Origin: Nemertoderma westbladi
Lineage: Eukaryota > Animalia > Xenacoelomorpha
Direction: 5' to 3'
NCBI GenBank assembly: GCA_032718475.1
Contig: JAUCBJ010003754.1
Span: forward strand, 1-33,114
Length of the DNA: 33,114 nt
The position numbers and the translations under genes were made by a program. Below are positions 2,066 through 32,720 of the stretch, piece after piece (the first letter of the stretch is position 1; every line of letters begins with the position of its first letter). Below the pieces are notes generated by a model. It saw only the letters and a list, made by a program, of their open reading frames with translations. It was not told where the DNA came from and ran no database searches.

Positions 2066-3733
2066 GCAAAGACGAATCGCATCCCAGGGGGCGCTGCCCG
2101 GGCCCACGTTGTTGGTGAACTCGACCGGTACGGAGATCGTGGGTGGAATGTGTTCGGGTGGGCGAAGTCGGCCACTAACGTGGAAGGGATGGTGATGGCT
2201 GCCCGTGTACATATTATCAGAATAGTGCCAACCGATCGGGAGCTCGTGTTCAGAAAATATGTCGACCAGGACGCTCCTCACCACGTCGCCCCGGGTCAGG
2301 GTGCTCCACTCAACGTCGCCCAGGGTCAGGGTGCTCCTCACCACGTCGCCCAGGGTCAGGGTGCTCCTCTCAACGTCGCTCAGTGTCAGGGTGCTCCACT
2401 CAACGTCGCTCAGTGTCAGGGTGCTCCACTCAACGTCGCTCAGGGTCTGGGTGCTCCTCTCAACGTCGCTCAGTGTCAGGGTGCTCCACTCAACGTCGCT
2501 CAGGGTCAGGGTGCTCCCCACCACGTCGCCCCAGGTCAGGGTGCTCCACTCAACGTCGCTCAGGGTCAGGGTGCTCCACTCAACGTCGCTCAGTGTCAGG
2601 GTGCTCCACTCAACGTCGCTCAGGGTCTGGGTGCTCCCCACCACGTCGCTCAGGGTCAGGGTGCTCCACTCAACGTCGCTCAGTGTCAGGGTGCTCCACT
2701 CAACGTCGCTCAGTGTCAGGGTGCTCCACTCAACGTCGCTCAGGGTCTGGGTGCTCCCCACCACGTCGCTCAGGGTCAGGGTGCTCCACTCAACGTCGCT
2801 CAGTGTCAGGGTGCTCCACTCAACGTCGCTCAGGGTCTGGGTGCTCCCCACCACGTCGCCCAGAATCATGGTGCTCCACTCAACGTCGCTCAGTGTCAGG
2901 GTGCTCCACTCAACGTCGCCCAGGGTCAGGGTGCTCATCACCACGTCGCCCAGGGTCAGGGTGCTCCTCTCAACGTCGCTCAGTGTCAGGGTGCTCCACT
3001 CAACGTCGCTCAGTGTCAGGGTGCTCCACTCAACGTCGCTCAGGGTCTGGGTGCTCCTCTCAACGTCGCTCAGTGTCAGGGTGCTCCACTCAACGTCGCC
3101 CAGAGTCAGGGTGCTCCACTCAACGTCGCTCAGTGTCAGGGTGCTCCACTCAACGTCGCTCAGGGTCTGGGTGCTCCCCACCACGTCGCCCAGAGTCATG
3201 GTGCTCCACTCAACGTCGCTCAGTGTCAGGGTGCTCCACTCAACGTCGCTCAGGGTCTGGGTGCTCCTCACCACGTCGCTCAGGGTCTGGGTGCTCCCCA
3301 CCACGTCGCTCAGGGTCAGGGTGCTCCACTCAACGTCGCTCAGGGTCAGGGTGCTCCACTCAACGTCGCCCAGGGTCAGGGTGCTCCACTCAACGTCGCT
3401 CAGTGTCAGGGTGCTCCACTCAACATCGCTCAGGGTCAGGGTGCTCCCCACCACGTCGCCCAGAGTCAGGGTGCTCCACTCAACGTCACTCAGTGTCAGG
3501 GTGCTCCATTCAACGTCGCTCAGGGTCATGGTGCTCCCCACCACGTCGCCCAGAGTCAGGGTGCTCCACTCAACGTCGCCCAGGGTCAGGGTGCTCCACT
3601 CAACGTCGCTCAGGGTCAGGGTGCTCCCCACCACGTCGCCCCGGGTCAGGGTGCTCCACTCAACGTCACCCAGGGTCAGGGTGCTCCACTCAACGTCGCT
3701 CAGGATAAGGGTGCTCCACTCAACGTCGCCTAG
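2066..3733 (+). CDS. Exon 4 of the Cys-rich gene: unique AKTNRIPGGAARAH...GWNVFGWAK...HIIRIVPT followed by (GAPLNVAQGQ)n repeats. First stop at 3731-3733; without the repeat-borne TAGs the frame would end at 4781-4783
   Basis: TGTAG acceptor at 2064-2065 joins exon 3 in phase 0 and matches the frame of ORF 2150..3733. The unique part resembles the paralog exon at 10305-10545. Confidence 0.6.
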   Translation, partial: AKTNRIPGGAARAHVVGELDRYGDRGWNVFGWAKSATNVEGMVMAARVHIIRIVPTDRELVFRKYVDQDAPHHVAPGQGAPLNVAQGQGAPHHVAQGQGAPLNVAQCQGAPLNVAQCQGAPLNVAQGLGAPLNVAQCQGAPLNVAQGQGAPHHVAPGQGAPLNVAQGQGAPLNVAQCQGAPLNVAQGLGAPHHVAQGQGAPLNVAQCQGAPLNVAQCQGAPLNVAQGLGAPHHVAQGQGAPLNVAQCQGAPLNVAQGLGAPHHVAQNHGAPLNVAQCQGAPLNVAQGQGAHHHVAQGQGAPLNVAQCQGAPLNVAQCQGAPLNVAQGLGAPLNVAQCQGAPLNVAQSQGAPLNVAQCQGAPLNVAQGLGAPHHVAQSHGAPLNVAQCQGAPLNVAQGLGAPHHVAQGLGAPHHVAQGQGAPLNVAQGQGAPLNVAQGQGAPLNVAQCQGAPLNIAQGQGAPHHVAQSQGAPLNVTQCQGAPFNVAQGHGAPHHVAQSQGAPLNVAQGQGAPLNVAQGQGAPHHVAPGQGAPLNVTQGQGAPLNVAQDKGAPLNVA

Positions 3734-4700
3734 GGTCAGGGTGCTTCCCACCACGTCGCCCCGGGTCAGGGTGCTCCACTCAACGTCACCCAGGGTCAGG
3801 GTGCTCCACTCAACGTCGCTCAGGATCAGGGTGCTCCACTCAACGTCGCCTAGGGTCAGGGTGCTCCCCACCACGTCGCCCCGGGTCAGGGTGCTCCACT
3901 CAACGTCGCTCAGGGTCAGGGTGCTCCCCACCACGTCGCCCAGGGTCAGGGTGCTCCACTCAACGTCGCCTAGGGTCAGGGTGCTCCCCACCACGTCGCC
4001 CAGGGTCAGGGTGCTCCACTCAACGTCGCTCAGGGTCTGGGTGCTCCCCACCACGTCGCTCAGGGTCAGGGTGCTCCACTCAACACCGCTCAGGGTCAGG
4101 GTGCTCCACTCAACGTCGCTCAGGGTCAGGGTGCTCCACTCAACGTCGCTCAGGGTCACGGTGCTCCACTCAACGTCGCTCAGGGTCAGGGTGCTCCCCA
4201 CCACGTCGCTCCGGGTCAGGGTGCTCCCCACCACGTCGCCCCGGGTCAGGGTGCTCCACTCAACGTCGCTCAGGGTCAGGGTGCTCCCCACCACGTCGCC
4301 CCGGGTCAGGGTGTTCCACTCAACGTCGCTCAGGGTCAGGGTGCTCCACTCAACGTCGCTCAGGGTCAGGGTGCTCCCCACCACGTCGCCCCGGGTCAGG
4401 GTGTTCCACTCAACGTCGCTCAGGGTCAGGGTGCTCCACTCAACGTCGCTCAGGGTCAGGGTGCTCCCCACCACGTCGCCCCAGGTCAGGGTGCTCCACT
4501 CAACGTCGCTCAGGGTCAGGGTGCTCCACTCAACGTCGCTCAGGGTCAGGGTGCTCCACTCAACGTCGCCCAGGGTTAGGGTGCTCCATTCAACGTCGCT
4601 CAGAGTCAGGGTGCTCCACTCAACGTCGCCCACGGTTAGGGTGCTCCACTCAACGTCGCCCAGTGTCAGGGTGCTCCACTCAACGTCGCTCTGGGTCAGG
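2271..4700 (+). repeat. 30-bp GC-rich minisatellite, 81 units (consensus GTGCTCCACTCAACGTCGCTCAGGGTCAGG)
   Basis: The period-30 register is held with no indels across the whole span; variants are substitutions only. Confidence 0.98.
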
Positions 4701-5269
4701 GTGCACACCGCAAGATCGCCCAGGGCGCTCCCCAAAATGCAGCCCGCGCCCGCAATGTTCCCCGTGAGGGTCCCACGCATTGACCGCGTGACGCATTCAG
4801 ATCGCCGCTATCGACATTGAGTACTGTATATATACATAATTATTACCGGTAGTATTGTTTAATATGGATTATATAATGAATATATAATAATTATTACTGA
4901 CCCGTTTTCAATTAAAATCTAGTTTATCATCAAAGTATGTAGGGAGGGGGGGGGGGGTGGGGGGTGGGATATCTTCACTCATAATATGACGTACAACATT
5001 GTCAGTCTTCAAACAACACCAGTTTGTTTTCGTTTGTTGTGGAGGTAATCCTTGTTAGAGCGTTGTTTCAACATGAATTATGTGACCGAGTTAAGAGACA
5101 CATATCCAGCACAATCATATTCATATAGCATCTGCAATGCAATAGAATACATGAAAAGTCAAATAACAACTCCTACTCCAATACTGGTCCAGTATAAAAC
5201 AGTCAGTGTATAACATCAGGCAAAAAACCTCAATTATTGTGATATCAGTTTTGAGTTAAATCTGATTCC

Positions 5270-6715
5270 ATGAGTCGTGATCGTTATATATCGATTCTCC
5301 GGTTTATTCCATTTTCGAACCCAAACAATGTAGATCCTGAGGACAGGGAAACAAGAATCCACGGTATTACAGAATTAGTAAGTGATATCTGTAAACAGTA
5401 TACACCAGGTCGAAATTTATCCCTTGATGGAGCATTACTACTTTTCAAAGGTCGGCTCGGATTCGAAGTATTTATTCGCACGAAACGTTCCCGCTTTGGG
5501 ATCAAACTATTTATTCTTTGTGACTCTAATGGGTATTTGGTTGTTGCAAGGGTGTATTTTGGGAAGAATGCCACAATACCCCAGATATTGGCAACACCAC
5601 TGAGCCTTCACATAGCGAGAACATAGTCGCTTTGTTACTTGATAAATCCGATTTATTGAAGAAAGGATACATTGTCCACATAGATAACTGGTATACTAGC
5701 ACTCGCCTGGCGACGTTTTTTGACAATACAACTGGTGTGAGAGGAACGATTAATGTAACTAGAGGAATTCCAGACGAATTAAAACACCTCAAACAGAAGG
5801 GTACTAGTTCGAAGTTTATGCGAAATGAAAGTAAAACAATCTTAGCTGTCAAATTTACTGATAAATGAGATGTATATTTGTTGTCAACTGTGGAAGATGC
5901 CAAAGAGGTTGAGAAGAACCGATTTGTACCACCATGGACAAATCGGTTCTTCTCAACCTCTTTGGCATCTTCCACAGTTGACAACAAATATACATCTCAT
6001 TTATCAGTAAATTTGACAGCTAAGATTGTTTTACTTTCATTTCGCATAAACTTCGAACTAGTACCCTTCTGTTTGAGGTGTTTTAATTCGTCTGGAATTC
6101 CTCTAGTTACATTAATCGTTCCTCTCACACCAGTTGTATTGTCAAAAAACGTCGCCAGGCGAGTGCTAGTATACCAGTTATCTATGTGGACAATTTTTGC
6201 ATTTTGTAAACCAACCCCGATTGACATGTATAACAAATTCATGGGAGGCGTTGACTTGCAGGACCAACTTATAAAAATGTACAATCCTGTACGGAAGAGC
6301 CATTCGTGGTATAAAAAGATTGGATTTAATCTGGTTATGCGTTTGGTTATAAATGCTTATGTCATTCATAAGCGCGAGAAGAATAAGAAGGCAAATCTCC
6401 TAACTTTCCTAACAAACGCAATTATTTGGCTGACTCAAATGAAATGTGATAACCCCCGTAAGTGGCAACGTGGCTTCTACTGTACGAAAGTGACAGTTGT
6501 GATTTTGTAGTTCCAGGCCCAGGGGCCTTTGTCCACCACTCCCTCACACTAATTCCACCAACACCGAAGGTTCGCAAACCAAGAAACCGTTGCTGATTGT
6601 GTTACTCTGATGGGTGCAAAGAAAAACTGTCACGATATTATTGCCCGCAATGCCCCTCTAAGCCATCTCTATGTCTGTATTGTGAGACTCCGTGGCACAA
6701 GAACATAAAACAATA
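5270..6715 (+). pseudogene. piggyBac (PGBD-type) transposase relic, 5'-truncated, with stops and frameshifts
   Basis: Motifs MSRDRY.SILRF, SLDGALLLFKGR..F..FI..K..RFGIK, IDNWYTS and YNKFMGGVDLQDQ. The C-terminal cysteine-rich domain (C*LC...SRYYCPQCPSKPSLC..C..PWH) lies at ~6590-6705. Confidence 0.9.
5671..6194. repeat. Long palindrome with arms 5671-5927 and 5938-6194 (257 bp each) and a 10-nt spacer ACCACCATGG
   Basis: The arms are reverse complements of each other. The ORF track shows identical peptides on opposite strands (5632..5868+ vs 5997..6284-). Confidence 0.95.
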
Positions 6716-13699: not shown

Positions 13700-14200
13700 G
13701 TTGTCCTTCTGTTTATCCTAATTTATGTTTAGTTTAGTCTAGTTATTCTATGTTTACTTTTTATATTTTCATGACTAGGATTCGAACCCTGGTTTAACTT
13801 ATTTTGTGTTGGTTTTATAATGGTCGCGAGTAGGGATTGAACCTGTGACCTTCTGTTTATTTTCCATAAAACGGGATACGAGTAGGGGTCGAACCTGTGA
13901 CCATCTGTTTATCCTATTTTATGTTTAGTTTAGGTACTCTAGTTATTCTATGTTTAACTTATTTTGTGTTGGTTTTATATTGGTCGCGAGTAGGGATTGA
14001 ACCCGTGACCATCTGTTTATCCTATTTTGTGTTTACTTTTTATATTTTCCATAAAACGGGATACGAGAAGGGGTCGAACATGTGACCTTCTGTTTATCCT
14101 ATTTTATGTTTAGTTTAGTTATTCTATGTTTACTTTTTATATTTTCCATAAAACGGATACGAGTAGGGGTCGAACCTGTGATTACTGGTTTAACTTATTT
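13700..14200 (+). repeat. Mosaic tandem repeat built around a reverse-complement B-box-like motif (GGG[AG]T[TC]GAACC[TC]GTGACC)
   Basis: About six copies of the motif between ~13778 and ~14180, with shuffled AT-rich modules. Confidence 0.75.
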
Positions 14201-18539: not shown

Positions 18540-19715
18540 CACGAATTTAAAAAGCCTGACGGATTTATAACCATGACGTGCAACACCAACTGGCCAGAAC
18601 TCCAACAGTCGCTTTTTGAAGGAGTGGTGCTGAAGATCGTCCTGACCTGGTCGCCCATGTCTTCAGAATGAAACTCAAACAACTCATTGATGAAATGTGG
18701 GATAAGAAAATATTAGGGAGGCTGAATGCCCGCATTCATATTGTTGAGTTTTAGAAACGTGGTCTACCCCATGCCCACATTCATGTTGTTGAGTTTCAGG
18801 AACGTGGTCTACCCCATGCCCACATTCTGAGTATCCTTCATCCAGAAGATCGATTTACGTGTTCCGATCACGATGATGCAGTGATTTCTGCTGAGTTGCG
18901 GCCTGATCCATTCATTCTGCCCCCTGGACCTCAATGCGAACAAGCTCAGATCCTTCTGGTCAAAGTTTTAAACTGCATGGTGCATTCATGTGGCCCTGCA
19001 TGCAAACAACCGAATGGCACCTGCAAGAAAGGATTCCCTAAGGCCTTATGTGAGGCCACCAAATGGGAAGATGACGCATTCTACCCCGGATAGCATCGGT
19101 ATCAAGGAAGGAGTGTTGAACACAAGGGGAAAACTGTTGACAACCACTGGGTTGTCCCATATTCGCCATACCTCCTTTTAAAGTTTGATTGTCATATCAA
19201 CTTTGAGATATGTATTTCCCCCGTACTGTCAAATACCTATTCATGTATATTCACAAAGGGGGCGATCAGCTCATGCTTGATGCCATGGATGTCAATGTGT
19301 TCACCAGCTACCAGAATATGCATTACATCAGCGCCCCGGAGGCTGCATGGCGCAAGGCTTCAAAATCACGCAGCAGATTCCCCCGTTCAGGCTCTCCGAA
19401 TTTATCTGGAGAATGATCACATGGTAATATTATGCCAGGAGGCTGATCTTCAAAATGTTATTTCAGAGAAGTCGCACAACACTGAATTAACAGCCTTCTT
19501 TAACTATAACGCCACCAATCCTGGGACTGATGTTTCCTACGTAGATTTTCCAAAAAAAATTTACGTTTAACCACTCTATGAAGAAGTGGCACAAACGTAA
19601 GCGCGGTTTCAAAGTCAGGCGTGTTCATACTGTCCATCCTTTGTCAGGTTATGAATTTTACCTGCGACTGTTACTCCATCAGAACCATTGCAAGGGGAAA
19701 ACCAGCTTTCAGGTC
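18540..19715 (+). pseudogene. Canonical Helitron Rep (HUH endonuclease) domain relic
   Basis: Motif 1 PDGFITMTCNTNWPE, then DRPDLVAHVF, motif 2 VEFQERGLPHAHIL, HSCG..C...C.KGFPK, motif 3 VKYLFMYIHKG, YISAPEAAWR and LTAFF..N. Multiple stops and frameshifts. Confidence 0.92.
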
Positions 19716-24271: not shown

Positions 24272-25240
24272 TTACTTTCTTGTATTATATGTTTTCTGTG
24301 TTCCTCTTTGCTCGCCCCATATTTTAGTAAGTACACCTTCATAAAACGTACAGCGCACACCTGGACGTTTGTACAGGCGCGCATTACACAAAGAGCCGAG
24401 GTATTGTTGGGATGAAGAATTCGTTAGCCATAGCAGCGTACTGATACGACCCAGCAATACAGATTTTCCTTTGGAATAAATTTGGAAACCCCCGATTCCG
24501 GATATTTGGTAATCTGCAAATGGGTTTTCCAAATTTATCAGTATGTTTCATGCATCGCCCTCCCGCACTGTTACAGCTGTGCGTTTGTAAAAATTGTAAC
24601 TGATTTAGAAAATTATTTTTGTCCCGCAAGTCTCGTACTAGTCCTTCCCCAATAAGATCATATAAATTCCGAAACTCCCATGAAATAAACTTTTAGATTG
24701 GCAGCAGATTCTAGATAGTGACACATTGACGCCCTCTTGGAAATAATGTTATAACCATATGTACATTTGGCTTGTTCCCTATGGCCTTCTGGTCTTGGAA
24801 CTCGAACCTGGACCACAAGTTTTTAACATGTCCGCAGGTTGTTCTTTGCTGAACTGCAGCCAATGGAGTACGTAATGTACGGTGCGCACCCACACTCTGA
24901 GCAATACAACACCCCATTGAACAAGTTGAAACTTGCAGTCCTCTGTGTGGCCAGCGGCCGTATTTACGTTTCATGGCGTTGGTAATGGGCGCCACACCGG
25001 GTCTCAGTGTCATTACAAGTCAATGTAATAAAGTAGGTCCAGGGTCTGTCCTTAGTCAGAGCGGCCAGTTTGTTTACCTTTTTTCGACAATCGATCTCGC
25101 TGAAGTTTAATTTATTTTCCCTCATCCCAATACTTACTTTATTTAAGTTTAAAAATTCTAGACTGTGGTTTAGTACTAAGGATGCAGAGTTGTTATTGAG
25201 TTGCGTGTTGAGTAAATTATCAAGTAAATTAAAATATGAG
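24272..25240 (-). pseudogene. Divergent Helitron-like HUH Rep relic, copy B
   Basis: Motif 1 PWTYFITLTCND, a motif-2-like VKNLWSRFEFQDQKAIGNKPNVHMVITL, and LQTHSC...GGRC.K. Frameshifted across several ORFs. Confidence 0.68.
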
Positions 25241-25826
25241 TAATAAGTGGGCATTCAATCCACTACGCAAGTACAGTGAGAAATACAAGGCATGGTATGC
25301 TAGCCACCAGCGAGAATGTACTGAGCACCATATTGGCTCAAATGGTATTATGGAATCTGCACTCGCCATAGACCTTTTCCAACGGTCGAAAGATGGGCTG
25401 ATGTCAGATAACCATGGTGTTCGCTATGCGGATATGGTCTGTGATGGTGACAGCTCATCTTACAAGTCTATATGGGATATATATGGTGCTTGTAACCAAT
25501 GCCAGAGTTATGAACAAATGCCTTGTGCCTTAGTTAGAGAAAGTAGAATTCAATGCTTCTATCATTGGTAAAAAATAAATTGGACTGAACAAACCCATTA
25601 TATTACACCTTTAATTACAGTTGCAACAGCTCATCTCCAATTTATTTAATTAATATCACCTGGCAGCAATACTCGAGCTGAATATTTATTTATTTGTACT
25701 TCCCTCCTGTTTCACTCTAGCATACTTGATGCCGTTAGGTCCGCTGTTAGAGATAGAATATATGCAACTTAAGACTGCCCGTTCAATAGAAGTGGATTAG
25801 GTGGGACTGTGAGTGTCAGGGGCTAG

Positions 25827-25919
25827 TGGCTGAGCTGGTTAGCGCTACTGATGAGGCCTGTTAGGCCGAAACGTACGTATAGCGCTGGTTCAACCCCCGG
25901 TGACGCGCTCTCATTTTTT
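25827..25919 (+). promoter_or_regulatory. Pol III type-2 promoter (A box 25827-25838, B box 25887-25897) and T6 terminator (25914-25919) around the hammerhead; repeated in each unit
   Basis: TGGCTGAGCTGG fits the A-box consensus, GGTTCAACCCC fits the B-box consensus, and TTTTTT follows downstream. Confidence 0.7.
25841..25886 (+). ncRNA. Type I hammerhead ribozyme, copy 1 (predicted cleavage after GUA at 25879)
   Basis: Stem I AGCGCTA/TAGCGCT, core CTGATGA, stem II GGCCT-GTT-AGGCC, GAAA, and a minimal stem III with palindromic ACGTACGT. Confidence 0.93.
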
Positions 25920-26181
25920 CCACTTCTGAACAAACCCATTATATTACACCTTTAATTACAGTTGCAACAGCTCATCTCCAATTTATTTAATTAATATCAC
26001 CTGGCAGCAATACTCGAGCTGAATATTTATTTATTTGTACTTCCCTCCTGTTTCACTCTAGCATACTTGATGCCGTTAGGTCCGCTGTTAGAGATAGAAT
26101 ATATGCAACTTAAGACTGCCCGTTCAATAGAAGTGGATTAGGTGGGACTGTGAGTGTCAGGGGCTAGTGGCTGAGCTGGTT

Positions 26182-26227
26182 AGCGCTACTGATGAGGCCT
26201 GTTAGGCCGAAACGTACGTATAGCACT
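26182..26227 (+). ncRNA. Type I hammerhead ribozyme, copy 2 (one stem I mismatch, TAGCACT)
   Basis: Same core and stems as copy 1. Confidence 0.9.
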
Positions 26228-26522
26228 GGTTCAACCCCCGGTGACGCGCTCTCATTTTTTCCACTTCTGAACAAACCCATTATATTACACCTTTAATTAC
26301 AGTTGCAACAGCTAATCTCCAATTTATTTAATTAATATCACCTGGCAGCAATACTCGAGCTGAATATTTATTTATTTGTACTTCCCTTCTGTTTCACTCT
26401 AGCATACTTGATGCCGTTAGGTCCGCTGTTAGAGATAGAATATATGCAACTTAAGACTGCCCGTTCAATAGAAGTGGATTAGGTGGGACTGTGAGTGTCA
26501 GGGGCTAGTGGCTGAGCTGGTT

Positions 26523-26568
26523 AGCGCTACTGATGAGGCCTGTTAGGCCGAAACGTACGTATAGCGCT
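26523..26568 (+). ncRNA. Type I hammerhead ribozyme, copy 3 (the adjacent B box reads GTTTCAA)
   Basis: Same core and stems as copy 1. Confidence 0.92.
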
Positions 26569-27135
26569 GTTTCAACCCCCGGTGACGCGCTCTCATTTTT
26601 TCCACTTCTGAACAAACCCATTATATTACACCATTGGTAAAAAACACTGGCATGGTCATGAAAGTGTGGATGAGAGTGAAGTACCTGAAAAAAAAATAGA
26701 TTGCCTAAGAGTCAACCACATTTCCTGTGTCAACCATGTACAAAAGCAGATGGGTACAGCTCTTAGGAAGTTTGTTAGTGACACTAAGGGATGACTATGT
26801 GATGGCAAATTTGTAGGTGGTAGGACAGGTAGGCTTACATCAGCTGATCAGGAAGCAATCACCTAAAATGACTGATGCCCAAAATCTTCATGCAATGAAG
26901 CGCAACATCATTGCTTCACTCCGACATTGTATAAAGTCTGGAATTGTCATCGATCGACACAAATTTTGCCCTGAAGGTGACTTATCTTGGTGTGCATACA
27001 AGCGCACTGGTATAGCAGGCCCAGATAAAAGCCATCATCTAGATGCCGTGTTCCTGCCTCTGCTACTGCCCATTTATCGACGATTGTCCCACTCAAATAT
27101 TATTGAAGCGATGTTTGGGAGCATTTACCCAGAAC

Positions 27136-27195
27136 CATCGGAAACTTAAGGTCCGATTATTTAGAGCAGCAGTAGTTCCAGTACTCCTCTACGCA
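27136..27195 (+). mobile_element. Short RTE-LINE fragment on the + strand
   Basis: RKLKVRLFRAAVVPVLLYA resembles RHLKTKFFRATVESVFLYG of the RTE at ~10725-10780. Confidence 0.6.
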
Positions 27196-29234: not shown

Positions 29235-31271
29235 TGTTACGATATATGGCGCTGTGTACTATTATCAGCCCATTATACGGTATAGATATTTAGATAAGCC
29301 ATAATGACGCGCAATCATATTCAGATAAGGAAATTAAAATGCCCATATTTTGAATTTTATCCATTTTGTACAGTATGCAGTCCTACCTATGTAATTTTGT
29401 AGTAAAATATAAATAGATAGTTCCACGGTAGCGAGTTTCCTGTACAACCCTGGATGTAAGCTTGCTGTTATTAGTATCAATAGGATTAACCGTGTATTTG
29501 TTTTAATTTCCATTGTATTTGCGCTAAATTAGATTTTATGTACTGTGCTTTAATGTGTCGCAAAATTAAGTAACGCAATCATTACCATATATGGTAATAA
29601 TTTGCGATTTCGAAAGCCATTAGGTTCACAATCCGGCTTCCTTATTGGCCTAGCTGCTTCTAGGCTGGTCTAATGGTAGCGCGGATTGGGGAACCAATGA
29701 GAGGATTATTGCATCATCCCTGTTGCATCATCCTTTAGGAATCACCTATAAATTGGCTGTATTTTCTTATTACTATTATTATTACTACTGCTACCGTTGT
29801 TTAATTTTCTTAGTTGCATTATAGTATAATTTCTCGCTTCTGTAATTCCATTCGTTTTCCTGCAATAATTAGCAATTTTTTGTAATTTCTGCTTATTTCT
29901 CGTGTTTCTCACTTTAATCTCGATGATTACTGCAAATTACAATCAGAACTATGATTTCTACCCTTTGATTAATGGTTCTATGTGATTAAGATGCGATAAT
30001 CCCATGGGATTTCTCTAGACTGTCAGACTGTGTGATTGCATGCGCCGTTCCGGTAGCCACTCACTAGATGGAGGGCTAAGGTACCGGGGGGTAGCGACGA
30101 AGGGAGTGCGGAGGATTCAAAGGCGAGCAACGCTGGCGGGGGGTCACCGTTGCGGTCGGAGGGCTAGCAGTGTAGAGGGAAGACTGATCGCTGGTACAGT
30201 AATTAGGGGGCTGATGATCCAGATTTTGTCTCTATTTTGTAGTATTAGGGGGGCAGGAATCGGGTTAGTTAGGAAGCCTACATGTACCCGAGAGAGGCCT
30301 TCGTGCTTTAAATTGTAAATTGTAAATTGTGAGTTGCGAATTACGAATTGTGAATTGCGAACTGCAGACTGAAATTGTACATTTGGGAACTACAAATTGG
30401 TAAGTATCGACTATTGATCATTACTCTGATTGGTGTGTTGCTAGAGTGTGCCTAGTTAGATTATGAATGCTTAGATAGGTGCCCTTTTCCCTTGATTGAT
30501 TTCTATTTCTTAGTTTACGATAAATAATTACTGATTAGGCAAAATTAATACGGTATTTAGGCAGTTACTAGTGTAACCCGTTGCGTAATAAATTAAAATT
30601 GCGCATTCTGGAACACTTAGTAATTAGTACGCTGTTTTATATTTGTGACTGTAATTAATTAGTAAAATTAAGAATTTGTACGCAGCATAGCGGAGAGTAG
30701 TTAAGGTAATAATTTGGAGTACTGTAAACTATTCACGCTGGGCGGTTATTTGAAATTAGCGGACAATAAGCTAGATAGCAGTATCCAAGACGCAGTATAC
30801 AGTAGTAAATTGCTGGCCTAAAGCCAGCCGAAGGCAAGTTTAGACCCATAGTATCAGTCCCCGATAGACATTCTGTCCCATTTTTGAATTATTTAAATAT
30901 TCTCACATTCACCCATTCCGTTAGGGAACCCCAGTATTTGCGATTGGAAAAGGCACGTTTATTTGTGCGTTTTAGCAGTAGGATTAGGCGATAAGAATAC
31001 ACTCTGAGTGTCAAGCCTCTCGTTTTAAGTAGCTTAGGGAGCCGATTCGGGTTTATTGTTTGGTTATTCCCGCGTGGCTCATAGATTCGAACAGTTAACT
31101 CTCTACCGAGCGATCGGTAGAGAAAGGAACAAGCGATTTGCAGGAGCCGTATAAAATTAGTAAAATATATTAGCGGACAGCAGGTTAGCGCCATCCAATG
31201 GTAAGTAGCAGTTTTGTGTATAGCAGTTGTGTAGTAGTAATAGCGCGCTCCTGATCGCCCCTTGCTTAACA
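29235..31271. mobile_element. 2037-bp apparently non-coding insertion with TGTTA...TAACA termini (solo-LTR-like) splitting the viral element
   Basis: TG...CA ends with a short inverted terminal match. Removing it restores an in-frame join (KQTPVLD|VLFRQVG). No TSD was seen. Confidence 0.5.
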
Positions 31272-32560
31272 GTCAAGCACGGGTGTTTGCTTGTTTAACA
31301 AAAACTTCAAAGCATTCAAGCCAACATTAAGATCACGCGTGTCCATGTACACATGTTTGCTATGCCCTGACCAATATCCAATAGGATTAATTCTTATTCC
31401 AAAACGCCAGTTCCATACATAGTCCTTTAGCTGTCCCAAGGCCAGGCTGTAAGTTCCTCTATCAAACTCCAATCCTAAAGCGGTAAACCAGCGTGATTCT
31501 TTCACGAATTTGGACATATTGGGTGCTTCGATGGTGAGAGATCCAGCTTCCAATGCAGTTATTATATCTTTCGCTGCTTGATCTCGCCATTCAAGAGACT
31601 ATGTATTCTTCCCGGTGACAAAGACTTAAAATGCACTGGAAAGCCATTATCAGTGGCCGAACCAAAAGTCAGAGCACTATGCGGATTATTCACTTCAGCA
31701 GAAGTGCCGGTAGTATGCATCCAGGGTGTGTTGATGACATCCTCAAATCGATGTGCACTTTCCACCACCTGGCAATCGTTTCCATTACAGAATACCCATA
31801 AATAAGGCATCATCTCCAAGTGATTGTCACAATGCATCCTAAAAGTTCCTATAGTTGGTAAAGTGCAGTGAGTTTCAGCACTAGTGCCATCAATCTCCAT
31901 TCTGCACACCTTCTTGGTACCTCTAATATTGGCAGTGACATCAACGTGCGCCCTGGCTTTCTCCAAGTTCATCACTTCATACTCCCACACGTATTTGCTC
32001 ACGGCTGCTGAGCCGCTGAGCTTGATACAAGTGCACAAAGGTCCTTCACCAAAGAGTCCACAGCCATTCCCCCACCCTCGGGATACCACTCCATTGTGAC
32101 AAACATCGTGTTCCCTTGGCTTACAATTGGGTGGTGTGCCTCTGGGACACCCCCAAAGAGTGGGACATCACTTGTGATCTTGTGGCCTAGTTGGATAGGG
32201 TAAACCCACGAAAAAGCCCATCCACCATTCATTTCTGCATCATGGCTGGCTATGTAGAAATTTCTCTTAGGATCAGTCACACGCAGAAACTTGCATTCAT
32301 CCCCACGCAGCATCATGTTGATCTGAACATTTTTGCTGCCTTGGATAGTTTCCAAGTTCTCAATCGAAGTACAATGATCATGTAAATAAGTAACATCCAG
32401 GTCGACAGCATCATGTTCAGCTGCATACACTTTCAGAATAGAACCAGTCAACCCGCTGAGTCCAACGAGTATAAACAACATTCCTGGGATAGGACTTTGG
32501 ATGTAACATAAAGTTAAGATTCCAGTCATCAGGAATCCAATACTAAAGATGTTCTCACAT
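31272..32560 (-). pseudogene. Endogenous flavivirus-like element, 5' part: prM-like membrane anchor/signal and envelope (E) class II fusion glycoprotein
   Basis: GCPRG...DVCHNGVVSRGWGNGCGLFGEGPLCTCIKL (fusion loop at 32048-32080) matches flavivirus C....VDRGWGNGCGLFGKG...TCAK. Downstream G...MHC, RFEDVINTPW and NNP..ALTFG parallel E domain II. Frameshifts near 32150 and 31560. Confidence 0.88.
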
Positions 32561-32562
32561 AA

Positions 32563-32720
32563 GTGTTAAAATTGTTGTGCCAGCACCAAATTTTTAAAAA
32601 TAAGCAAATTTATCAACATATATTATCACCTGAATCCGATGAAATCATTTAAAACAGCACTATCTCAAACCTGTACTATTTCATCATGGATACGAAATTT
32701 GGTGCTAGCACCAAATCTTT
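32563..32720 (-). repeat. Dispersed repeat related to 22895-23105, marking the 5' boundary of the viral element
   Basis: AAAATTGTTGTGCCAGCACCAAATTTT, CCTGAATCCGATG and the TTTGGTGCTAGCACCAAA palindrome. Confidence 0.7.

What the first reader, a model, noticed from the sequence alone, without database searches (positions are those of the whole stretch)
25563..26644. Retrozyme array with a TSD: footprint of rolling-circle reverse transcription of a circular RNA
Seen: 3 x 341 bp plus 25 bp, with only a handful of substitutions between units. The array starts and ends mid-monomer, far from the cleavage site, has 9 extra 5' bases (TAAATTGGA), and is bounded by a 13-bp TSD within a transposase gene. 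Known: metazoan non-LTR retrozymes are short tandem repeats with type I hammerheads that yield circular RNAs, and TSDs of this size typify target-primed reverse transcription. Inference: the whole multimer was inserted in one event by a borrowed LINE or Penelope RT circling a 341-nt circRNA.
Basis: partly seen in the sequence, partly recalled or inferred. Interest (0 to 1): 0.8.

Follow-up and report, generated by a model that had tools for sequence, protein, structure and literature searches.

The report
Retrozyme trimer with Penelope insertion footprint
Three near-identical copies of a 341-base non-coding repeat with a predicted self-cutting hammerhead RNA sit in a broken transposase gene at a spot that is empty in another sample, and their lopsided ends indicate that a Penelope-type enzyme likely wrote them in one step, probably by copying a small RNA circle three times round, which would be junction-level support for a route so far only proposed.

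Summary
Observation confirmed: 3 x 341 + 25 bp, four substitutions, type I hammerheads, and a 13-bp duplication inside a Mutator-like transposase. Contigs from two runs of one other sample cross the site with one 13-mer copy and no array, so it is a real insertion. The family is high-copy.

The '9 extra bases' are an inverted piece of the monomer (unit 52-60, or 52-63 with the duplication's AAA). The forward arm ends at unit 24-25 and the inverted arm at 60-63, 35-39 nt apart. Two other loci break at unit 64. This fits the two internal start sites and 30-40-nt tail of Penelope-like elements, not a LINE tail, and suggests fixed rather than random start points. The hammerhead lies between tRNA-type A and B boxes, followed by a T6 run.

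A circular template is the likeliest source but is not shown. An uncleaved linear multimer gives the same anatomy, and no RNA data were available. The circle-copying model is already in print as a hypothesis, and this scan has noted similar insertions on other DNA. Verdict: a variant of known animal retrozymes with an unusually readable insertion site.

The parts
25563..25575 (+). Left copy of the target-site duplication (13 bp at most; its last 3 A could belong to the inverted arm)
   Evidence: single copy in empty-site contigs
25576..25584 (-). Inverted arm: reverse complement of unit positions 52-60 (52-63 with 25573-25575)
   Evidence: 93 of 20000 shuffles reach the 9-mer, 1 of 20000 the 12-mer
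25585..25925 (+). Retrozyme unit 1 (341 bp, 43.7% GC)
25926..26266 (+). Retrozyme unit 2; one private substitution, in hammerhead helix I
26267..26607 (+). Retrozyme unit 3; three private substitutions, one of which breaks the B-box match
26608..26632 (+). Partial fourth unit (positions 1-25); inferred start point of reverse transcription for the forward arm
   Evidence: start point inferred
26632..26644 (+). Right copy of the target-site duplication
25841..25886 (+). Type I hammerhead of unit 1: 7-bp helix I, CUGAUGA core, 4-5-bp helix II, 2-bp helix III with palindromic tetraloop; predicted cleavage after 25879 (after 26220 and 26561 in units 2 and 3)
   Evidence: activity not tested
25827..25838 (+). 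tRNA-type A-box match upstream of the hammerhead (also 26168, 26509)
   Evidence: consensus pattern recalled
25887..25897 (+). tRNA-type B-box match downstream of the hammerhead (also 26228; lost in unit 3)
   Evidence: consensus pattern recalled
25914..25919 (+). T6 run, the only run of 4 or more T in the unit; would act as a Pol III terminator
   Evidence: terminator role is recalled knowledge
25610..25648 (+). Unit positions 26-64, between the two inferred start sites; equivalent to the Penelope 30-40-nt 'tail'
   Evidence: inferred
25233..25562 (+). 5' part of the broken Mutator-like transposase (target)
   Evidence: PF20700 E 1.1e-6
26645..27137 (+). 3' part of the broken Mutator-like transposase (target), with further stops and frameshifts

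Best explanation
This is a recent insertion of 3.07 units of a high-copy hammerhead repeat (non-LTR retrozyme) into a broken Mutator-like transposase, likely made in one event by a borrowed Penelope-type endonuclease/reverse transcriptase that probably copied a 341-nt RNA circle. Shown: array, duplication, empty site, inverted 5' arm, high copy number. Inferred (about 0.9): staggered nicks 9-13 bp apart and target-primed copying in one event. Inferred (about 0.8): the enzyme was Penelope-type and primed from both target strands at two internal RNA sites, unit 24-25 and unit 60-64. The first copy ran three times through the unit and stopped at position 1; the second stopped after 9-12 nt; the two were joined head to head. 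Inferred (about 0.6): the template was the self-cleaved, ligated monomer circle and not an uncut multimer.
For: Empty site: an X1 contig (1468 nt, depth 92.8) and an X2 contig (595 nt, depth 49.2) map 25563 and 26632 to the same record base, with over 100 letters on each side. The inverted arm is far beyond chance. The two arm ends are 35-39 nt apart. Penelope-like insertions often carry an adjacent inverted 5'-truncated copy and a one-sided 30-40-bp tail (PMC8557442). The purified PAc protein nicks and extends both strands and starts at two internal RNA sites that bound the tail, in an AC-rich loop (PMC11167929). The forward end here falls after ACAC in a region predicted unpaired. Two other family junctions fall at unit 64: one joint seen in X1 and X3, and one inverted piece that matches unit 46-64 at 18 of 19 letters, read by eye from the joint letters of X1 (about 0.03 by chance, post hoc). 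Three of the 15 listed joints are opposite-strand. There is no poly(A) or microsatellite tail. For a circle: three cleavage sites are crossed without an indel; no end lies at a cleavage site; all three units carry T at unit 146 where 98.6-99.9% of family depth in three runs has G; circles make up about half to nearly all of the retrozyme RNA in coral, axolotl and mussel.
Against: No RNA evidence for this element could be obtained. PAc uses unprocessed RNA in vitro and hammerhead cleavage is dispensable. The circular fold is no more stable than shuffles (z -0.39; 49 of 150 as low). A T6 run 17 nt after the B box would stop Pol III near 100 nt, short of a full unit. No second locus ending at unit 24-25 was seen, but only 15 of 64 joints, 12 of 36 joint-letter rows and 18 of 695 loose-end rows were displayed. 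On a circle already copied once, unit 52-63 would be covered by cDNA, so the second priming must be early or on another molecule. No autonomous Penelope partner could be looked for. The empty contigs differ from the window by 12-13 substitutions in 215 nt on the right, so a paralogue is not excluded; both come from one sample, and only 12 of the 13 duplicated bases matched on the left.
Confidence: 0.45

Rival explanations
1. Same Penelope-type, one-step, two-armed insertion, but the template was a linear, uncut multimeric transcript of an existing array of four or more units.
For: PAc inserts unprocessed RNA and a multi-copy mRNA is its proposed template. Axolotl has dimer and trimer RNAs. Helix III here is only 2 bp, so cleavage may be slow or need dimers. 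One of nine Xenopus dimers cleaved in vitro. The unit 2 substitution (G to A at unit 300) also appears in the joint letters of another locus, although it is a CpG site and may recur.
Against: Three or more hammerheads must stay uncut during export and copying, and the coral and mussel motifs cleave at about 0.8 and 0.1 per minute. The source array would itself need the rare T146 in adjacent units.
Confidence: 0.27
2. A LINE enzyme made the insertion by target-primed copying, and the 9-12-nt inversion comes from twin priming or from a repair-templated patch at the 5' junction.
For: A 13-bp duplication and 5' inversions are ordinary LINE-1 outcomes (PMC10760644). There are 3 nt of complementarity between the target end and the RNA. 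LINE-like fragments occur in this window (motifs recalled, no Pfam hit).
Against: No poly(A) or simple-repeat 3' tail. The duplication does not begin with the A-run expected of L1-type nicking (recalled). Twin priming or patch repair predicts no fixed end, yet three junctions fall at unit 63-64.
Confidence: 0.13
3. A shorter insertion (one unit plus 25 nt, or two units) was later expanded in place by unequal exchange or slippage.
For: Local amplification of tandem retrozymes is proposed in bioRxiv 10.64898/2026.07.22.740005. It explains unit homogeneity and the shared T146 equally well.
Against: The insertion looks young (4 differences in 1048 nt; absent in another sample). No two units share a derived change, though four changes give little power. 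Even the seed must span an intact cleavage site, so it still needs a longer-than-unit template.
Confidence: 0.1

Closest known systems
Metazoan non-LTR retrozymes (Cervera and de la Pena 2020, PMC7229834; review PMC7761336; Li, Clavereau and Pollet, bioRxiv 10.64898/2026.07.22.740005)
   Same: Tandem 341-bp non-coding units, GC under 50%, type I hammerhead in each unit, duplication longer than 4 bp, high copy number. Copying of a circle into multimers, and Penelope-like elements as mobilisers, are proposed there.
   Different: In the parts read, those papers argue from co-occurrence, shared ribozymes and pLTR homology, and give no junction analysis, inverted arm, tail geometry or empty allele. 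They report no A/B boxes around the hammerhead. Their RNAs were shown to cleave and circularise; this one was not tested.
Endonuclease-bearing Penelope-like elements, e.g. Poseidon PAc of Anolis (PMC11167929; PMC8557442)
   Same: Tandem copies, adjacent inverted 5'-truncated copy, two arm ends 35-39 nt apart, internal start in an AC-containing unpaired region, hammerhead.
   Different: No ORF, so not autonomous. The hammerhead has a helix III rather than the minimal form. No homology to a named Penelope element could be tested.
Schistosoma Sm-alpha / Sj-alpha SINE-like hammerhead repeats (via review PMC6765202; primary papers not seen)
   Same: Tandem non-coding repeat that combines Pol III-type promoter motifs with a hammerhead.
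   Different: There the promoter is followed by the hammerhead; here the hammerhead lies between the A and B boxes and a T6 run follows, so Pol III production of full units is doubtful.
LINE-1 5' inversions, twin-priming model (via review PMC10760644)
   Same: Inverted 5' piece, short complementarity at the target end, duplication of about 13 bp.
   Different: No poly(A); the inverted arm appears to end at a fixed site.

Membership tests
Metazoan non-LTR retrozyme | Type I hammerhead in every unit | tested here: met
   Core and helices I-III in all three units; Rfam below threshold; unit 2 has a mismatch in helix I
Metazoan non-LTR retrozyme | Tandem units of 150-450 bp, GC under 50% | tested here: met
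   341 bp, 43.7% GC
Metazoan non-LTR retrozyme | Non-coding, no LTR layout | tested here: met
   No ORF of 80 aa or more in the array; pure tandem units; PBS and PPT not searched separately
Metazoan non-LTR retrozyme | Dispersed multi-copy family; duplication longer than 4 bp | tested here: met
   Summed depth about 3e4-3.5e5 over inner monomer bins against about 12-93 over the transposase flank; 1460, 2380 and 1229 contigs laid on the stretch, a count that includes a second repeat at 25100-25230; 9-13-bp duplication with empty site
Metazoan non-LTR retrozyme | Highly self-paired predicted circle | tested here: inconclusive
   Rod-like, 61% paired, but z -0.39 against 150 shuffles
Metazoan non-LTR retrozyme | Self-cleavage and accumulation of circular monomer RNA | not testable with these tools
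   Needs bench work or raw RNA reads
Penelope-type insertion footprint | Inverted 5'-truncated copy adjacent to the 5' end | tested here: met
   9-12-nt inverted arm; feature from PMC8557442
Penelope-type insertion footprint | 30-40-nt tail on one arm only | tested here: met
   Arm ends at unit 24-25 and 60-63; feature
Penelope-type insertion footprint | Both start sites fixed across the family | tested here: inconclusive
   Two other junctions at unit 64, none seen at 24-25, from partial tables
Penelope-type insertion footprint | AT-rich target with ATT at the nick | tested here: inconclusive
   The duplication starts C-ATT, but 6% of window positions do as well; PAc preference
Penelope-type insertion footprint | Autonomous partner with a homologous start region in the genome | not testable with these tools
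   No genome held
Autonomous Penelope-like element | ORF with reverse transcriptase and GIY-YIG endonuclease | tested here: not met
   No ORF in the array
LINE-mobilised SINE | Poly(A) or simple-repeat 3' tail and promoter at the 5' end of the insertion | tested here: not met
   3' end is mid-unit; A/B boxes are at unit 243-313; criteria recalled
Sm-alpha-like Pol III hammerhead repeat | Pol III promoter motifs in each unit | tested here: met
   A box in 3 of 3 units, B box in 2 of 3; 1.42 and 0.34 matches expected per whole window; ARAGORN finds no tRNA
Sm-alpha-like Pol III hammerhead repeat | Multimeric Pol III transcripts | not testable with these tools
   The T6 run after the B box argues against simple read-through

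The most novel reading that the evidence does not exclude
A non-coding RNA circle that carries its hammerhead in the anticodon-arm position of a tRNA-derived shell and mimics the paired internal start sites of a Penelope-like element. A Penelope enzyme dimer primes from both sides of a DNA break and rolls round the circle, so each insertion is a direct record of rolling-circle reverse transcription in an animal germline.
Probability: 0.3. Interest if true: 0.75.

Novelty: new variant of a known kind. Interest (0 to 1): 0.48.

Why it matters
Which enzyme moves animal retrozymes, and whether the circle is the real intermediate, are open: the papers read support Penelope-like elements only by co-occurrence and sequence kinship. 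A young insertion with a known empty site and two readable start points turns this into a concrete test, namely map all ends in one genome and offer circular and linear RNA to the partner enzyme. A eukaryotic reverse transcriptase that rolls round RNA circles and inserts multimers would also explain how ribozyme satellites are seeded at new loci.

Tried and rejected
Own-genome survey: no genome is held, so end positions and copy numbers could not be counted directly. Run search: no RNA holder listed. Run X4, guessed to be RNA and labelled as another organism, gave one 371-nt contig (unit plus 30, wrapping round, 6 differences, depth 5.5). A tandem array, a multimer and a circle all assemble this way, so it is not used as evidence. 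The metagenome scan gave one hit, L001, which shares only the 20-nt hammerhead core and is not this family. Folding stability of the circle is not significant. The depth profile along the unit is too noisy to place ends. Snap-back of the cDNA end as the origin of the inversion: no complementarity at the internal junction by eye, so not preferred, but not excluded. Assembly artefact: rejected, since units carry private changes and the duplication fits the empty site exactly. Sequence look-up in earlier scan notes found nothing, nor did the look-up near this place. Paper searches returned nothing.

Full report
Observation. The array is real: 25585-26632, period 341, 3.1 copies, 99% matches. Unit 1 differs from unit 2 at one position and from unit 3 at three, and no change is shared. 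A 13-mer bounds it at 25563-25575 and 26632-26644 and is found nowhere else in the window. The flanks match consecutive parts of the Mutator-like transposase family PF20700; the gene carries other stops and frameshifts as well. The window looks like repeat-rich animal DNA, with piggyBac-like and Helitron-like fragments. No whole genome is held.

The ribozyme. Each unit has CUGAUGA, a 4-5-bp helix II, GAAA, a 2-bp helix III closed by a palindromic tetraloop, the GUA cleavage triplet and a 7-bp helix I: a type I hammerhead, predicted to cut after 25879, 26220 and 26561. Rfam does not reach its threshold. A 2-bp helix III with a tetraloop is described as the invertebrate-like form (PMC7229834). 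The circular monomer folds into a rod with the hammerhead at one end, but no more stably than shuffles (49 of 150 as low). Following a lead from earlier scan notes, I tested for promoter motifs: an A-box match at unit 243-254 in 3 of 3 units and a B-box match at 303-313 in 2 of 3 flank the hammerhead, against 1.42 and 0.34 expected in the whole window (patterns recalled). A T6 run follows at unit 330-335, which by recalled knowledge would end a Pol III transcript near 100 nt. How a full 341-nt unit is transcribed is therefore open.

Empty site. Laying public contigs on the two flanks separately gave, in X1, a 1468-nt contig of depth 92.8 that matches 25312-25574 at record 1158-891 and 26632-26846 at record 902-700, and in X2 a 595-nt contig of depth 49.2 that matches 25449-25574 at record 1-119 and 26632-26846 at 108-310. 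In both, 25563 and 26632 fall on one record base, so there is one copy of the target and no array. That the record is the same in both calls is inferred from equal length, depth and strand. X1 and X2 are one sample. The left match stops one base short of the 13th, and the contigs differ from the window by several percent, so an allele is likely and a paralogue possible. Either way the duplication was made on insertion. Summed depth over the unit is several hundred to a few thousand times that of the flank in three runs; this overcounts, but the family is clearly large and diverse.

The ends. Shuffles reach this 93 and 1 times in 20000; other window words match 201 of 32019 and 5 of 32016 times. 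So the insertion has two arms: a long forward arm ending at unit 24-25 and a tiny inverted arm ending at 60-63. Penelope-like insertions often have an inverted 5'-truncated copy next to the 5' end and a 30-40-bp tail at one end (PMC8557442, passages). Purified PAc nicks and extends both target strands and starts at two internal RNA sites; the tail is the sequence between them (PMC11167929, parts 1-2 of 4). The 35-39-nt offset here fits. Among other family copies, one search shows a joint leaving the unit at position 64 (X1, X3) and, in the letters between the sides of another joint (X1), an inverted piece that by eye matches unit 46-64 at 18 of 19 letters and stops at 64. Two hits in a 2-nt window among about 42 breakpoints has a chance near 0.03, computed after the fact. 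Three of 15 listed joints are opposite-strand. Only 15 of 64 joints, 12 of 36 joint-letter rows and 18 of 695 loose-end rows were displayed, and no second end at 24-25 was among them. The reading 'two fixed start points' came as a lead from earlier scan notes and is only partly tested here.

Mechanism. Most likely a Penelope-type enzyme nicked the target 9-13 bp apart and primed from both strands. One copy ran through three hammerhead sites without an indel; the other stopped after 9-12 nt. A self-cleaved linear monomer cannot give this, because it would begin and end at the cleavage site, 46 and 70 nt from the actual ends. The template was thus a circle or an uncut multimer. For the circle: circles are about half to nearly all of the retrozyme RNA in the three animals studied (PMC7229834), and all three units share a letter at unit 146 that at most 1.4% of family depth can carry. 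For the multimer: PAc prefers unprocessed RNA, multimers exist in axolotl, and helix III is short. I put the full chain at 0.45, the linear-multimer version at 0.27, a LINE at 0.13 and later DNA expansion at 0.10.

What is known. Multimeric cDNA from a circle, DNA target priming and Penelope-like mobilisers are all proposed in PMC7229834 (parts 2-3 of 6, passages and Discussion) and PMC7761336 (passages); the former also notes duplications longer than 4 bp. bioRxiv 10.64898/2026.07.22.740005 (parts 1-3 of 5) adds co-occurrence and pLTR kinship and notes limited evidence on the life cycle. Pol III plus hammerhead repeats are known from Schistosoma (PMC6765202, passages). I also read passages of PMC10760644, PMC6155905, PMC11722881 and PMC8969392. 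Ten searches turned up no paper that reads the Penelope two-start geometry from a retrozyme junction; the library lacks most subscription journals. The supplement of PMC7229834, which holds the life-cycle figure S9, could not be read, and the preprint's supplements were not seen; either may show such ends. Earlier notes of this scan report similar insertions in this and other genomes; they are unchecked and not counted as support.

Verdict. A real, young retrozyme insertion with a clean Penelope-type footprint. New variant of a known kind; interest 0.48.

Noticed in passing
window 30889-32565 (-): Flavivirus-like endogenous viral element: the ORF at 31565-32167 matches the flavivirus envelope glycoprotein family PF00869 (E 3e-12). 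Neighbouring ORFs lie in other frames, so the gene is broken; they have no Pfam hit.
   Followed up: partly
window 27137 onward: A second, very high-copy repeat (summed depth near 1e6) begins at 27137 inside the same transposase; X1 and X3 contigs leave the window there, so it is probably another polymorphic insertion. A minus-strand ORF has an RT-like FADD motif (recalled, no Pfam hit).
   Followed up: partly
window 25524-25532: The window is 7 nt longer here than contigs of X1, X2 and X3, apparently a short tandem duplication.
   Followed up: no
window 25100-25230: Depth rises to several hundred or more, indicating another moderately repeated sequence upstream of the transposase fragment.
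   Followed up: no
window 13778-14176 (-): Five B-box matches in a degenerate tandem repeat, possibly a tRNA-derived satellite.
   Followed up: no
window 2283-4704: 30-bp-based tandem repeat, open in several frames for 500-900 codons.
   Followed up: no
window 5255-6510: piggyBac-like transposase fragments (PF13843) with an internal inverted duplication visible in the ORF list.
   Followed up: no
window 18726-19570: Helitron-like fragment (PF14214, E 1e-4, below cut-off).
   Followed up: no
L001 808-841: Hammerhead core in an intergenic region of an unrelated contig with short phage-like ORFs.
   Followed up: no
window 25861-25867 (family variants): About a third of family depth in X1 has C to T at 25867, the base pair next to the core in helix II, which may mark a less active subfamily.
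   Followed up: no
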